Assembly (NCBI GenBank): GCA_963575745.1
Contig: CAUYUJ010000199.1
Coordinates: 62,001-116,926, forward strand
Reading direction: 5' to 3'
Source: Prorocentrum cordatum
Taxonomy: Eukaryota
DNA length: 54,926 bases
This document shows, one piece after another, positions 7,843-50,538 of the stretch. The translations under genes were made by a program, and so were the position numbers. The notes under the pieces are model-generated. The model was not told the origin of the DNA. It saw only the letters and a program-made list of their open reading frames with translations, and searched no databases. Within the stretch, counting starts at the first letter, position 1. The number at the start of each line of letters is the position of its first letter.

Positions 7843-7940
7843 TCGGGAGACTCTCCATGGGATCCCCAGGGGATCCTATGGGATCCCCCCCCTGGGGTCC
7901 TATCCCCCCATGGGATTCCCCCCCATGCAGAGTCTCCCGA
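7843..7940. mobile_element. 98-bp MITE with 5-bp TSD
   Basis: TIR tcgggagactct/agagtctcccga; perfect TSD tccgc (7838-7842 and 7941-7945). Confidence 0.85.
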
Positions 7941-8642
7941 TCCGCGCGGGGCGCCCGCCTCGCGCCGCCGCGCGGTGCGGCAGCAGCCTCGCGGGTGGTT
8001 TCGTAGGTTCGAGCAGGGCGATCCCTGACCTCTCCCTCCCTCCCTCCCTCCTCCTCTCCTCCCTCCTCCTCTCCTCCCTCCCTCCCTCGATTTCGTAGGT
8101 ACGTCCTCTCCTCCCTCCCTCGTCCTCCACCTGTTCGTGGGTACAGACGGAAGCGGAGGAAGGGGATGGGGCGAGGAGGGAGGATGAGGAGGGAGGGTCG
8201 GCCACGCGCGAGGATGAGGAGGGAGGATAACGAGGAGGGCAATGAGGAGGAGGAGGAGGAGGAGGAGGAGGAGGAGGAGGAGGCAGGAGGAGGCAGGAGG
8301 AGGCAGGAGGAGGAGGAGGAGGAGGAGGAGGAGGAGGAGGGTGAGGAGGAGGAGGAGGAAGAGGAAGCAGGAGGAAGCCGAGGATGATGGGGGGAGGCAG
8401 AGGTAGAGGCAGAGGCACAGGAGGAGGATGAGGAACGATAGCCAGGTTTCGTCGGTTCGTAGGTTCGTAGGTTCGTCAGGGCTGCACCTGAGCGGTGTTG
8501 TTGTGGTGGTTTCGTGGGCCGTGTTCGTTCCGGTTTCGTTTTGCGGTAGAGGAGGGTTCGGGACGAAGGCGAGGGACAACGATCTCAAAACGAAAGCGAA
8601 AAGCACCGTTTAGGGTCAGCCCTGGGTTCGATGTCTGCCAAC

Positions 8643-8853
8643 TCGGCGGCGGGTATGGGGGGGAAGTGAGAAGGGGGAGGCCTTCGCAGCAGGTGGCCGG
8701 GCTTCTCAGAAGCCCGCTGGCCTTCTGAAGAGTTTTCTGTGTTTTTGGGGAAGGCTGAGCAGACTTCTCAGAGGGCCAGGGGACTTCCGAATCTTCTGAG
8801 AAGGCCTTCTCATTCTCGCTCACTTCCCCCCCCCCCCCCTCGCTCGCCGCCGA
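8643..8853. mobile_element. Palindromic MITE-like element (cttctcagaag family)
   Basis: TIR tcggcggcg...ggggggg / ccccccc...cgccgccga. Related copies at ~15478-15667, ~19400-19604 and ~20605-20762. TSD not resolved. Confidence 0.65.
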
Positions 8854-8984
8854 ATAATGGGAGCCTTGGGTTTCCCTGCAGTTAAGCCGAAGTTGGACCT
8901 CCTGCTTCTCCTCGCCTCTCCCGTTCCTCCCTCTCCTCGTTCTTCTCGCCTACCTCGTCAGGGGGCGAGACTGCTCCAAGTCTT

Positions 8985-9149
8985 TCAGAAGGGAAAAACA
9001 CAGAGACACAATTAATCGTCGATTCCCCAGAAAATATGGGAAAATATCGGAAGTGGAGGGGGAAGACGAAAACCCAAAACAACATATAGGAACATACGGG
9101 GAATCATTTTTTTTGTGTGTATTTATTTGCGTGTCTTGGGACCCCTTCA
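8985..9149. mobile_element. MITE family C (~165 bp), 5-bp TSD
   Basis: tcagaaggg...ccccttca with perfect TSD gtctt. Other copies: 14523-14686 (aaagg/aaaga), 30129-30291 (ttcac/ttcac), 51082-51231 (gctac/gcttt). Confidence 0.85.
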
Positions 9150-47880: not shown

Positions 47881-49084
47881 GGAGCGGCGGAGGCGGAGAT
47901 GGGGTAGGGCGGGAAGGAGGTACGGGAGGAGAAGGTGGAGAGAGGCGGAGGGGAAGGGCGAGGGACGCGCAGGTGGTCGGAGGTGGCACTGCAGCGCTGG
48001 GCCCACATGTCCCCGTCGTCGTTGTCGATTTTTTGTTGGCGCCCCCACGAGCACGGCGCCATACAGGCGTGGCACTTGGGCACCGCGAGGAGAATCGACA
48101 GGGGATATGGCTGGCCCGCTCGTGCCAAGCTTGCGGGGGTGCTTCAGGCTGTTTGCCTGCATGGCTGCTCAGACTCTCTGCTGATCACCACCCACCAAAC
48201 CACCCCAACGCAACCCGAAGGCTTCAATTTGCCCTCCATTTCCAGTGGGGGGTGGGGGTTGGGGAACATCGAAAAAACACATATGGAGCCCATACCCCCC
48301 CCCAACCCGAAACTCGGGTCTTCGGGTAGGGTTTGGGTGGTCTGGTAGGTAGTCAGTTGAAAGCTCAGTGGTCACTTTGGTATAGCAGGCGTGGCAGCCG
48401 GGCTCCCCGGGGAGCAGCCTCTGGGAGGTATGACCCTTGCCCGTGCGCGCCCAGCTCGTGAGGAGGCTTGGGGAGGTCTCGGGCGGGTTGCTGTTGCTAC
48501 CCGCCAGAACGCTTCGGAAATTGATAGACCTCCTACCCTGACACGTCGATCAGCGAATCGGCCGTTTCCGGTTTTTGCGAGGGCGTCGCGGCCGTCATTT
48601 TTGCGGGCCCAGGTCCGTCGGTTTCGGTTTTAGGCCGTTTTCACGAAAGGGTGGTTTATTAAAGGGAGGTTTGTCCACCGCCGATGTTTTCTTTTGGAGA
48701 GCCACATGATCACTGCGATGTAGCCGCTGCGGTACAGCCGAGGTCGGTTCGTAGGTCGACCTGCAACATCAAGGGTAACCTTTGTGACATGAGCATGGCG
48801 ACCCATGCCTTCTACACTCCTGGCAATGTTGCCCCCGGAATGAACGTGTGTCCTCTTGCGTGCCATCTCGACTCCACCCCGACTGTACTTGGGCATCCCA
48901 AGGCGGAGCCGCCATGAGATATCACATTTGCCCGTTCGCGTGTAGATTGTGGGGATGTTTGGGACCCTTCGCCAGTTGGGAGTCCCCAGGCTTGCTTCCT
49001 TCCTCCGTGTTTCCCGCCCTCTTCCCCCTACTCGCATTCAGAACCAAGCCGACACTGATTTGTCATATGCGGATTCATGCACGC

Positions 49085-49292
49085 AGACCCCGCGCACACT
49101 GCTCATTCGCACTCAGACTCACCCACACTCAGGCTCACCCATATTCGTATGACTCGCACTCAGACCACACGCGCTCATATTCACTGACACTCAGACTGTC
49201 TCAGACTCCCTCATGCTCAGGCTCACTCGCACTCAGACCTACTCACAGTCAGTCTCACTCACACTAAGACCCACTGCGCTCAGACCGCTCAC
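49085..49292. repeat. Degenerate (ACTCAG/ACTCAC)n simple repeat
   Basis: actcagactcacccacactcaggctcac... Confidence 0.8.
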
Positions 49293-50025
49293 ATTCCAAT
49301 GCAGAGCACTTCGCCACCCCAAGGGGGAACCGCCCAGGAAAATTATGCTTGCTCTTTCGCGTGCAGATTGCGGGCATGTCTCATGCGAAACCATAGTCTT
49401 TTGGCTCCCCAGGCCCTTTCTGTTCCAGAGCCCCGTGCCACCGCGACATAGCAGGCATATCACTCGGGCACCCCAATGGGGAGCCGCCAGGTAACGCGCA
49501 GTCGCCACAAGCTACGATTCTTCCACTTTGACACTCTGACCGGGAAATGAGATGCACATGTTCGGATGTCCGCGTCGAATAATTCTGTTGCAAATTTCTC
49601 TCGTAAGGACCTGTAACCATTCAGAGCAGGAGTCACACTGGGCCTTCGCGGACAATCGCGTAAATCTACGAACCAGTTCGTGGTTGGGGGTTAATGTTGA
49701 TTTCGATGTTCCTAGGGTGAACACGTAACAATTGAACTCCGAGCCTGTCTTGCTCTTGGGGTCGTACTGCCCTCTCGGGCAACTTTGAGCTTCTCTGGTG
49801 AATCGGGCAGGATGTGCGACTGTACCCAGGATGTACGACTGTGTTCATAATCAGCCGTGACAGAATCTCAAACCCTAACACATTCCACATTGTGCACTGC
49901 AGCTCGTGTGCTCGCGCCCCGCAGCCGTCCGCAGTCGCACCGGAGTCTTCCGGGGCAGCGAGCACGCGAGCAGTGATGCGCACCAGAGAGTGTTCGGGAG
50001 CATGGCCCGTCTCCCCCTTCGAGGG

Positions 50026-50538
50026 TTCAGTCGGGTACGTCCCTCTTCGACTAGACATAATCAGGGGCGGAAAAGAGGGGGGTGATGACGAGGGGGGGGT
50101 GGATATCATGGCGTGGGCCATGATACCTCCCCAGATTTCGTGGCGCCTCTTCTTATTTCATTACGTCCCTGGCCCCCCCGCTGGGCCGCGCACATGCCGC
50201 CAGTCATGATTTGCACCCCCCCCTCTTGGACACCCCCCTCTTGGCCGCTCCCGACGTAAGAGTGACCCTTCGCCGGAGTGACCTTTGGTGCGCGCTCACT
50301 GGGGTCCCCCGATCGCCGTGCTCGGTGCGATAGTAGCGTCTTGCGCGCTTGTGTTTGGCCCCCTCGCGCCCCCAAAAAAGCCGCGCACCAAAGGTCACTC
50401 TTGCCCAGGGTCACTCTTACGTGCAGCCGACGAGCCTCTCCAGGCGGAATGTTCAATTTTTTTGACAATGCTGAAGAAGGTTTCATTTCTTTTATTTTCC
50501 GTCCTTAATCCGCCTGCAGGGGGACATGCCCGACCCAA
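50026..50538. mobile_element. Three-level nest: ttaagtcggg family > family E (50051-50426) > family D (50061-50254)
   Basis: Family D TSD cataa/cgtaa; removing it restores ctagacgtaagagtgacc, matching 21944. Family E TSD tcga/ccga. Confidence 0.8.

What the first reader, a model, noticed from the sequence alone, without database searches (positions are those of the whole stretch)
7843..50254. Many unrelated MITE families share mostly T...A termini and a 5-bp TSD: a possibly unclassified DNA-transposon system
Seen: ten or more sequence-unrelated short TIR elements have 5-bp flanking duplications. Perfect: tccgc (7843-7940), gtctt (8985-9149), gcttg (14144-14373), ctgat (14505-15046), gtaaa (27956-28149), tgtat (29726-29955), ttcac (30129-30291), tctgg (35967-36139), tcttc (37419-37590), cattc (37740-37912). 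One mismatch: 14507, 14523, 29098, 30125, 37995, 48185, 50061. Nearly all start TC(A/G) or TA. Most end in A (tga, cga, cta, tca); a few end cag. Known: among 5-bp-TSD DNA elements, Transib begins CAC, Ginger begins TGT and Polintons begin AG, so none fits. Inference: one diversified transposase lineage, perhaps undescribed, mobilises all of them. No transposase is present in this window.
Basis: partly seen in the sequence, partly recalled or inferred. Interest (0 to 1): 0.8.

Follow-up and report, generated by a model that had tools for sequence, protein, structure and literature searches.

The report
Mini-transposons sharing a 5-base footprint
This stretch of a GC-rich dinoflagellate-like genome is packed with small gene-less jumping elements from at least 13 unrelated families that all duplicate exactly five bases where they land and share the same end letters, which points to a common, still unidentified enzyme; elements of this general kind are already known in dinoflagellates.

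Summary
All 10 perfect 5-bp flanking repeats lie at the stated coordinates, and 6 of the 7 one-mismatch cases do too; 30125 could not be resolved. I found more. In all there are 21 resolvable insertions in 13 families: 12 perfect, 8 at 4/5, 1 at 3/5. Mismatched flank pairs gave 0 of 420 perfect.

Six nested insertions, compared with uninterrupted sister copies, show exactly 5 bp duplicated. Ends read 5'-TCRG: T at 24 of 26 ends, purine at position 3 in 26 of 26. Four families also share CGNAAG about 10 nt inside the end.

The families are very high-copy in four public runs. The window encodes no recognisable protein domain, so no transposase.

These are MITE-type DNA transposons, probably moved by one transposase lineage. 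"Undescribed superfamily" is not shown:
- Dinoflagellate introner-like elements with 5-nt duplications are published, unclassified or tentatively labelled PIF-Harbinger or Ginger.
- Other MITEs here duplicate 4 bp (F) or 8 bp (K).

Earlier scan notes on this genome record an intron-forming TIR element and a hAT-like transposon, but not this signature.

The parts
7843..7940 (.). S7843: 98-bp MITE, TIR TCGGGAGACTCT, TSD tccgc/tccgc
   Evidence: single copy in the window, boundaries fixed by TIR and TSD only
8985..9149 (+). A1: family A (TCAG...TTCA, no clear TIR), TSD gtctt/gtctt
   Evidence: four-copy alignment
10040..10223 (.). C1: family C (TCGGGYCG...CGRCCYGA), TSD ttctc/ttctt (4/5)
14144..14373 (+). 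B1: family B, dimer of a 113-bp hairpin unit, TCAGAG...CCCAA, TSD gcttg/gcttg
14505..15046 (.). W: TAGGGGAACAAG...CTTGTTCCTCTA, TSD ctgat/ctgat; carries nested G1, which carries nested A3
14507..14869 (.). G1: family G (TCRGGGGCGG...CCGCTCCCGA), TSD gatta/gattg (4/5), nested in W
14523..14686 (+). A3: family A, TSD aaagg/aaaga (4/5), nested in G1; the empty site in G2 has one AAAGA
21940..22126 (.). H1: family H (TCGATTAGACGTAAGA...), TSD ctcta/ttcta (4/5), nested in a K element; H2 (50047-50430) is the same insertion event
22338..22533 (.). C2: family C, TSD gttag/gttag
27956..28149 (.). S27956: TCAGGCGATCGCAAGCATGG...CCATGTTTGCGCGCCCCTGA, TSD gtaaa/gtaaa
   Evidence: high depth
29098..29251 (.). 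Y: TCATCGAGCGCG...CGCGCTCGTCTA, TSD ataaa/atgaa (4/5)
29726..29955 (+). B2: family B, TCAGAG...CCCAG, TSD tgtat/tgtat
   Evidence: a contig of run X4 ends its match at 29955
30129..30291 (+). A2: family A, TSD ttcac/ttcac, inserted 4 nt inside a family I copy
   Evidence: a contig of run X4 starts its match at 30129
35967..36139 (+). E1: family E (TCAGCC...GCCGCCAG), TSD tctgg/tctgg
37177..37371 (.). C3: family C, TSD gagtc/gagtc
37419..37590 (+). E2: family E (5' end mutated to GCGG), TSD tcttc/tcttc
   Evidence: contigs of X1, X3 and X4 end at 37589/37590
37651..38235 (.). C4: family C copy interrupted by D1 and X; its right end is degraded and its own TSD is not resolvable
37740..37912 (.). 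D1: TAAAACGA...CTGTTTTA, TSD cattc/cattc, nested in C4; empty sites in C1, C2 and C3
   Evidence: loose ends before 37740 in run X3
37995..38200 (.). X: TCGGGGGAGCGTAAGAC...GTCTTACGTCCCCCTGA, TSD tcttt/ccttt (4/5), nested in C4; empty sites in C1, C2 and C3
   Evidence: loose ends before 37995 in run X3
48185..48355 (.). I1: family I (TCACCACCC...GGTAGTCA), TSD gctga/gttga (4/5)
50061..50254 (.). G2: family G, TSD cataa/cgtaa (4/5), nested in H2; the empty site in H1 has one CGTAA
51082..51231 (+). A4: older family A copy, flanks gctac/gcttt (3/5)

Best explanation
The features are miniature, gene-less cut-and-paste DNA transposons (MITEs) of a GC-rich genome. Earlier scan notes call it dinoflagellate and Prorocentrum; I did not verify that.

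Shown:
- At least 13 families of about 100-230 bp, unrelated in their interiors, have inserted here and into one another.
- Each insertion duplicated exactly 5 bp of target.
- Their ends share 5'-TCRG...CYGA-3'.
- A subset shares a second motif, CGNAAG, 10-15 nt inside the end.

Inferred:
- One lineage of DDE-type transposase, encoded on longer elements elsewhere in the genome, binds the subterminal motif and cleaves at the T/A ends.
- It integrates with a 5-bp staggered cut, with a mild preference for T/A-rich pentamers flanked by C and G.
- Any short DNA that carries the right ends gets mobilised. That would explain why the interiors differ and why one family (A) has almost no inverted repeat.

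The superfamily of that transposase is not determined here.
For: TSD:
- 12 of 21 insertions are perfect and 8 of 21 are 4/5, against 0 of 420 and 8 of 420 for non-self flank pairs. No other adjacent repeat length fits, 0 of 21 for each of 3, 4, 6, 7 and 8.
- Six paralogous empty sites each show one copy of the 5-mer.

Families and boundaries:
- They come from self-BLAST and flank alignments.
- Interiors are unrelated: the only blastn cross-hit among 15 representatives is a 14-nt match between F and Y.

Ends:
- T at 24 of 26, C at 17 of 26, purine at 26 of 26, G at 16 of 26.
- CGNAAG starts at position 10-11 in 7 of 26 ends, against a mean of 0.15 and a maximum of 3 in 2000 random draws (the motif was chosen after seeing the data).

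Copy number:
- 16,932, 64,688, 2,572 and 1,319 contigs of four runs were laid on 10.2 kb.
- In run X1, element bins reach a summed depth of 37,646 against 3-8 in unique bins.
- The few displayed pieces and loose ends stop at my boundaries: 30129, 29955, 37589/90, 37740, 37995.

Non-coding:
- No enzyme or transposase domain in 269 ORFs.
- No Rfam family and no tRNA.

Target:
- TSDs are 41% T against 20% T in the window.
- C in 11 of 21 at each of the two positions before the TSD, and G in 11 of 21 just after it.
Against: - No transposase or long element with these ends was found. A long-range scan for TIR plus 5-bp TSD pairs up to 30 kb gave 27 hits against 32 in the shifted control.
- Structure-only blind scans show no excess of 5-bp repeats.
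- Family A lacks a convincing TIR. In B and E one end reads CTG instead of TCR, and their TIRs start 4-8 nt in.
- Only 4 of 13 families carry CGNAAG, and that motif was found post hoc.
- The target preference rests on 21 sites.
- S7843 is single-copy in the window, so its ends rest on TIR and TSD alone.
- Only 32 of about 86,900 laid pieces and 24 of about 3,360 loose ends were displayed, so the agreement with outside copies is anecdotal.
- Several copies are unresolved: C4's right end, I2, I3, and family J.
Confidence: 0.7

Rival explanations
1. The 5-bp families are moved by a hAT5-type transposase. hAT5 is a branch of the known hAT superfamily that makes 5-bp instead of 8-bp duplications.
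For: - hAT5 is defined by 5-bp TSDs (PMC9004415 and PMC12730594, passages read).
- An earlier scan note reports a 14.5-kb hAT-like autonomous element with atypical termini in this genome (not checked by me).
- Family K in this window has the hAT-typical 8-bp TSD, 7/8 in 3 of 5 copies, and also starts with T.
- D (TAAAAC) and W (TAGGGG) start like the hAT end consensus YARNG, which I recall rather than tested.
Against: - The second base is C in 17 of 26 ends, where the recalled hAT consensus has A.
- In the passages read, hAT5 is reported from invertebrates and fish.
- I saw no description of hAT5 termini.
- No transposase was available to test.
Confidence: 0.2
2. They belong to the PIF/Harbinger (PHIS) superfamily, as Gozashti et al. 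tentatively labelled the 5-bp-TSD introner families of Polarella glacialis ('possibly NuwaI').
For: [quoted passage not shown]
- The C / AT-rich core / G target pattern here recalls the NuwaII target C|TNA|G (PMC4482050).
Against: - PHIS groups make 0-3-bp TSDs, and their TIRs start with A/G, GG or GGG (PMC4482050). The ends here start with T in 24 of 26.
- The published label rests on a terminal-motif HMM hit only.
- Roy et al. say the Polarella class-12 elements begin with C.
Confidence: 0.12
3. A genuinely new superfamily of eukaryotic DNA transposons, perhaps restricted to dinoflagellates, with TC...GA ends and 5-bp TSDs.
For: - None of the 5-bp groups whose ends I could read in papers fits: Ginger is TGTNR, the CMC/Transib clade is CA..TG, and PHIS starts with a purine.
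- Several Symbiodinium introner families with an automated TSD of 5 are 'Unknown' in PMC12130899 file 8.
- My five literature searches surfaced no description of TCRG-ended 5-bp elements.
Against: - End letters alone do not define a superfamily, and no protein is in hand.
- hAT5 ends are unknown to me.
- The text searches cannot find a sequence motif shown only in figures, and the bioRxiv supplements were closed.
Confidence: 0.2
4. Several unrelated transposases that each happen to make 5-bp TSDs move different subsets of the families. For example, the TA-ended D and W could use a Ginger-like integrase while the TCRG families use another enzyme.
For: - Amoebophrya fam38 is annotated 'Ginger, 5-bp TSD, TA/TA termini', like D and W here.
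- Only 4 of 13 families share CGNAAG.
- Roy et al. stress many mobilisation machineries within one dinoflagellate.
- The window itself holds 4-, 5- and 8-bp classes.
Against: T at position 1 and a purine at position 3 are shared by D and W as well. It would be a coincidence for unrelated enzymes to agree on both TSD length and end letters.
Confidence: 0.15
5. The flanking repeats are chance matches, or artefacts of choosing boundaries to fit.
For: Blind scans show no excess. Four perfect cases also read as perfect when both boundaries are shifted by one base.
Against: - 12 of 21 perfect against 0 of 420 in the control.
- Six empty-site comparisons.
- Boundaries agree with copy-to-copy alignments and with outside contigs.
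Confidence: 0.01

Closest known systems
Introner-like elements (ILEs) of dinoflagellates, especially Polarella glacialis class 12 with a 5-nt TSD. Sources: Roy et al., bioRxiv 10.1101/2020.10.14.339549, passages read; Gozashti et al. 2025, PMC12130899, supplement file 8 rows read.
   Same: - Short, high-copy, non-coding elements in a dinoflagellate-type genome.
- Many unrelated families and several TSD classes (3, 4, 5, 8 nt) in one genome.
- A 5-nt TSD class exists.
- Some ends carry CAG, as B and E do here.
- The transposase is unknown.
   Different: - Class 12 is said to begin with C and to sit in NNAGG/NAGGH targets. The families here begin with T, and their TSDs are T-rich without that motif.
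- The copies here lie in DNA with no detectable coding sequence. After removal of the element, the ORFs across the junction are not longer than at random sites. Intron function is therefore not shown here.
hAT5 group of the hAT superfamily (Kapitonov and Jurka 2007, cited in PMC12730594; described in PMC9004415)
   Same: Cut-and-paste elements with 5-bp TSDs.
   Different: The ends here are TCRG, not the recalled YARNG. No transposase is known. hAT5 is reported from animals.
Classical MITEs such as Stowaway/Tourist in plants (recalled general knowledge)
   Same: Small size, TIRs, fixed TSD length, very high copy number, nesting, and mobilisation in trans by a transposase that recognises only the ends.
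   Different: TSD length and end letters differ (TA or TWA there, recalled). Many unrelated interiors share one end signature. One family has nearly no TIR.
   Same: TSD of 5 bp (Transib, TDD-4/5) or 5-6 bp (Polinton, recalled).
   Different: Ends are TGTNR in Ginger (PMC2836005) and CA..TG in the CMC/Transib clade (PMC12730594). None has TCRG.

Membership tests
MITE (non-autonomous TIR DNA transposon) | Terminal inverted repeats | tested here: met
   10 of 13 families have TIRs that reach the ends. In B and E the TIR starts 4-8 nt in. Family A has only a weak subterminal inverted repeat.
MITE (non-autonomous TIR DNA transposon) | Target-site duplication of fixed length | tested here: met
   5 bp in 21 of 21 resolvable insertions: 12 perfect, 8 at 4/5, 1 at 3/5. 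Six empty sites agree.
MITE (non-autonomous TIR DNA transposon) | Small, non-coding, multi-copy | tested here: met
   Elements are 98-230 bp. No Pfam enzyme domain in 269 ORFs. There are 2-4 copies per family in the window, and thousands of contigs in four runs.
MITE (non-autonomous TIR DNA transposon) | Shares its ends with an autonomous element that encodes the transposase | not testable with these tools
   No genome is held. Scans of metagenome, genome and viral contigs found no related DNA.
Transib | 5-bp TSD | tested here: met
Transib | CAC... (CA..TG) termini | tested here: not met
0 of 26 ends start with CA.
Ginger / TDD | TGTNR termini | tested here: not met
   0 of 26 ends start with TGT; 2 of 26 start with TG. 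The consensus is from PMC2836005.
Ginger / TDD | 4-5-bp TSD | tested here: met
hAT5 | 5-bp TSD | tested here: met
   definition from PMC9004415
hAT5 | hAT-type ends (YARNG, recalled) and a hAT transposase | tested here: inconclusive
   A is at position 2 in only 5 of 26 ends. hAT5-specific ends are unknown to me, and no transposase is available.
PIF/Harbinger (PHIS), including Nuwa | TSD of 0-3 bp (TWA, AT, CWG, TNA, ANT) | tested here: not met
   The TSD is 5 bp with no fixed sequence. Definitions are from PMC4482050.
PIF/Harbinger (PHIS), including Nuwa | TIR starts with a purine (A/G, GG, GGG) | tested here: not met
   24 of 26 ends start with T and 2 of 26 with C.
Dinoflagellate introner-like elements | Element plus one TSD is removed as a spliceosomal intron from a gene | tested here: inconclusive
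   No coding sequence was detected around the copies, and no RNA run was listed. The copies here look intergenic. Genic copies elsewhere could not be examined.

The most novel reading that the evidence does not exclude
The TCRG...CYGA, 5-bp-TSD elements mark a so far unnamed superfamily of DDE transposons, possibly specific to dinoflagellates. A single enzyme type would mobilise any short DNA with a T-C-R-G end and a CGNAAG box. It would be a main driver of MITE (and, in genes, introner) load in these giant genomes.
Probability: 0.2. Interest if true: 0.7.

Novelty: new member of a known kind. Interest (0 to 1): 0.42.

Why it matters
Dinoflagellate genomes are huge and repeat-laden, and they gain introns from MITE-like elements whose transposases are almost all unknown.

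A precise signature gives a concrete handle for fishing the autonomous element out of the full assembly:
- exactly 5 bp duplicated;
- 5'-TCRG ends;
- a CGNAAG box 10 nt inside the end;
- a 24-nt TIR shared by two families.

If that enzyme turns out to be hAT5-like or PIF-like, the published 'unknown' 5-nt-TSD introner classes get a home. If it is neither, a new superfamily is defined. As it stands, this is a well-documented example of a known kind of element.

Tried and rejected
- **Public collections:** two metagenome-contig scans with conserved 24-26-mers of families A and C found 0 matches. One genome-contig scan found 0. One viral-contig scan gave 6 loci that share nothing else with the window by blastn, so they are chance 18-mer hits.
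- **Sequencing runs:** no RNA holder was listed. All four listed runs hold only small shares of the query stretch's words (0.05-0.07).
- **Blind detection:** an exact-seed TIR scan, a 12-of-14 TIR scan and a TSD-seeded scan with gapped TIR scoring were dominated by chance and by internal palindromes. Candidates for k = 3 to 8 were 180/82/29/17/7/2, against 162/63/23/13/8/3 in controls.
- **Long elements:** a scan up to 30 kb gave 27 hits against 32 in the control, and none had TC...GA ends.
- **Intron test:** removing each element plus one TSD did not give junction-spanning ORFs longer than at random sites, except next to (AGG)n repeats.
- **Earlier-findings look-ups by sequence:** families B and K returned nothing relevant.
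- **Alternative parses:** an 8-bp hAT-type TSD for the TCAG families, and a PIF-type TWA reading that treats the T...A as target. Both were rejected because the flanks are then not direct repeats and because of the empty sites.
- **SINE origin of family A:** no tRNA and no Rfam match.
- **Unresolved:** family J (31988-32295, 48514-48684, 51728-51905), the 22618-22839 hairpin element and 19398-19592 could not be given a TSD.

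
Full report
**Setting.** The window is about 60% G+C and full of simple repeats and satellites. It holds no recognisable gene.
- 138 ORFs of 130 aa or more and 131 ORFs of 90-129 aa were scanned against Pfam. I had first dropped 40 of 178 long ORFs, and an uncounted number of short ones, as low-complexity. 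The only hits were low-complexity or repeat-type matches inside a satellite.
- No Rfam family and no tRNA was found.
- No genome is held for the window.
- Earlier notes of this scan call the genome a dinoflagellate, Prorocentrum. The G+C content matches the 59.7% published for P. cordatum (PMC10666404, passages read). I did not verify the organism myself.

**Checking the observation.** Self-BLAST of the window, followed by MAFFT alignments of copies with 25-30 bp of flank, defines families by where copies at different loci stop being alike. This is independent of any flanking repeat.
- Six of the seven one-mismatch cases hold. The seventh, 30125, is a truncated family I copy whose right end I could not place.
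- I added five insertions: C1, C2, C3, H1 and A4.
- The final table has 21 insertions in 13 families: S7843, A, B, C, D, E, G, H, I, W, X, Y and S27956. Twelve are perfect, eight are 4/5 and one is 3/5.
- As a control, I paired each left flank with the right flank of every other element. This gave 0 of 420 perfect and 8 of 420 at 4/5.
- At the same boundaries no adjacent exact repeat of 3, 4, 6, 7 or 8 bp exists.
- I left out D2 (13369-13541), which is part of a 334-bp, 98.8% identical segmental copy of D1 plus its right flank. I left out H2, which is the same insertion event as H1. I also left out C4, I2, I3 and family J, whose ends are degraded.

**Nested insertions fix the TSD length.** This is the strongest evidence. 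D1 and X sit inside a family C copy. G2 sits inside H2, A3 inside G1, A2 four bases inside a family I copy, and H1 inside a family K element. In each case an uninterrupted sister copy shows the pentamer once. Examples:
- GGGGCC-CAGTC-CTCGATAC in C2, against ...CATTC[D1]CATTC... in C4.
- TTAGA-CGTAA-GAGTG in H1, against ...CATAA[G2]CGTAA... in H2.

With G1 removed, W has an excellent TIR (TAGGGGAACAAG.../TAGAGGAACAAA...) and the perfect TSD ctgat.

**What argues against.** Three blind, structure-only scans found no excess of 5-bp flanking repeats over shifted controls. With a 55-kb GC-rich, palindrome-rich sequence, chance TIR pairs swamp about 20 true elements. The case therefore rests on family boundaries and empty sites, not on a window-wide statistic.

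**End signature.** I took one representative per family and both ends, giving 26 ends.
- Position 1 is T in 24.
- Position 2 is C in 17 and A in 5.
- Position 3 is a purine in all 26 (13 A, 13 G).
- Position 4 is G in 16.
- The interiors are unrelated: the only blastn hit among 15 representatives at word size 7 and E of 0.01 or less is a 14-nt match between F and Y.
- Some TIRs are nevertheless alike. CGNAAG starts at position 10-11 in 7 of 26 ends (families C, H, X, S27956), against a mean of 0.15 and a maximum of 3 in 2000 random draws. I chose this motif after seeing the data, so the contrast is inflated.
- X and S27956 share about 24 nt of TIR (TCRGG.GA.CG.AAG.CATGGGTT), and G resembles X over the first 10 nt.
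- This two-part end, a cleavage-proximal TCRG plus an inner box, is what a common transposase-binding architecture would look like.

**Target.** The TSDs are T-rich: 41% T against 20% T in the window, with A at only 20%. The two bases before the TSD are each C in 11 of 21 sites, and the base after it is G in 11 of 21. With 21 sites this is only suggestive.

**Abundance and outside copies.** Contigs of four public runs, one labelled a marine metagenome, were laid on 27900-38100.
- 16,932, 64,688, 2,572 and 1,319 contigs matched.
- In run X1 the summed depth reaches 37,646 over family A, against 3-8 in unique bins. The tool warns that this is not a copy number.
- A few pieces and loose ends were displayed. 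They stop at my boundaries: 30129 (A2 left), 29955 (B2 right), 37589/37590 (E2 right), 37740 (D1 left) and 37995 (X left). One starts 2 nt off (27954 against 27956).
- Only 32 of about 86,900 pieces and 24 of about 3,360 loose ends were displayed, so this is supportive but anecdotal.

**Other TSD classes in the same window.**
- Family F (CTTGGCATCG...CGATGGCCAG; 9476-9614, 35724-35863, 36399-36542) has perfect 4-bp TSDs in 3 of 3 copies: taag, gtcg, gccg.
- Family K has a roughly 30-nt TIR, TTAAGTCGGGCCTGTCCCCCTACAGGGGGA, with 10 termini found against 0 expected. Its 8-bp flanks match 7/8 in 3 of 5 complete copies and 4/8 in 2, against a maximum of 5/8 in 20 control pairs. That is a hAT-like TSD length.

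So 'many MITE families, one 5-bp system' is true of most but not all short TIR elements here.

**What is known.**
- Roy et al. (bioRxiv 10.1101/2020.10.14.339549, passages read) describe 15 classes of introner-like elements in Polarella glacialis with TSDs of 3, 4, 5 and 8 nt. They note that this implies different mobilisation machineries. Their class 12 has a 5-nt TSD and begins with C.
- In supplement file 8 of Gozashti et al. 2025 (PMC12130899; rows read), four of the first 30 dinoflagellate rows, all Symbiodinium families, have an automated TSD of 5 and class 'Unknown'. [quoted passage not shown] One Amoebophrya family is annotated 'Ginger, 5-bp TSD, TA/TA termini'. No Prorocentrum row exists in that file.
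- hAT5 is a hAT group with 5-bp TSDs (PMC9004415 and PMC12730594, passages read).
- The ends I could read for known groups do not fit TCRG: Ginger is TGTNR (PMC2836005), the CMC/Transib clade is CA..TG, and PHIS TIRs start with A/G, GG or GGG and have TSDs of 0-3 bp (PMC4482050). I found no description of hAT5 ends.
- Dougan et al. (PMC10666404, passages read) report introner elements in P. cordatum, defined only as introns with 8-20-nt inverted and 3-5-nt direct repeats.

**Interpretation.**
- Shown: these are MITEs with a 5-bp TSD and a common end signature. They are highly repeated, nest in one another, and have no coding capacity here.
- Inferred: they are mobilised in trans by one lineage of DDE transposase that makes 5-bp staggered cuts.
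- Open: which superfamily. My rough odds are hAT5-like 0.2, PHIS-like 0.12, a new superfamily 0.2, and several enzymes 0.15, with the rest undetermined.
- Whether genic copies act as introns could not be tested. The copies here are not in detectable ORFs, and no RNA run was listed.

**Verdict.** The finding is a new set of members, with a usefully precise signature, of a kind already described in dinoflagellates. It is of moderate interest until the transposase is found.

Noticed in passing
window 29413-29573, 31201-31360, 32305-32407, 50026-50538, 51378-51570; single termini near 21918 and at 30803: Family K is a MITE with a roughly 30-nt TIR (TTAAGTCGGGCCTGTCCCCCTACAGGGGGA) and an 8-bp TSD: 7/8 in 3 of 5 complete copies and 4/8 in the other 2. 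That is a hAT-like length. K also starts with T and contains TCGGG five bases in. The K-plus-H composite occurs twice (21918-, 50026-50538), so the composite itself was copied.
   Followed up: partly
window 9476-9614, 35724-35863, 36399-36542 (diverged copy 33913-34019): Family F (CTTGGCATCG...CGATGGCCAG) has perfect 4-bp TSDs in 3 of 3 copies (taag, gtcg, gccg). Two of the three fit the GHNN-plus-terminal-CAG pattern that Roy et al. describe for 4-nt-TSD introner-like elements.
   Followed up: partly
window 13369-13702 and 37740-38072: A 334-bp segment is present twice at 98.8% identity. It consists of element D, its right TSD, part of C4, and the first 78 nt of X. The left breakpoint coincides exactly with D's left end, and there is no TSD at the second site. 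This may be an aberrant, one-ended transposition or a repair event.
   Followed up: partly
window 13958-14104: A 147-bp near-perfect hairpin (72-nt arms, 86% complementary). The 10-mer AGCCAAGACG lies 3 nt before it and 10 nt after it. This may be another element class with a 9-10-bp TSD, or chance.
   Followed up: no
window 30768-30803 and 30950-30990: A truncated K copy (30803-30946) is flanked by a direct repeat of about 38 bp (CAAGGGGGGGCGAGGATYATGATGTTCMAACCTACTT), far longer than any TSD class seen here.
   Followed up: no
window 4694-6491, 23868-24819, 41037-41978: Three arrays of a related satellite of about 77-90 bp. The first is inverted relative to the other two. ORFs through them give spurious zinc-finger and mucin-like Pfam hits.
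   Followed up: no
window 54058-54926: A 98% pure (AGT)n tract of 290 copies or more runs off the end of the window. Many long (AGG)n/(GAG)n tracts occur elsewhere, for example 26695-27690. A 100-N assembly gap lies at 19880-19979.
   Followed up: no
21 insertion sites of the 5-bp families: The TSDs are 41% T but only 20% A on the + strand. This strand asymmetry is unexpected for symmetric TIR elements. It may reflect a strand-biased local sequence context, or orientation relative to transcription.
   Followed up: no
window 14144-14373, 29726-29955: Family B is a head-to-tail dimer of a 113-bp unit that is itself a hairpin. Both copies have the same dimer structure, so the dimer is the mobile unit.
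   Followed up: partly
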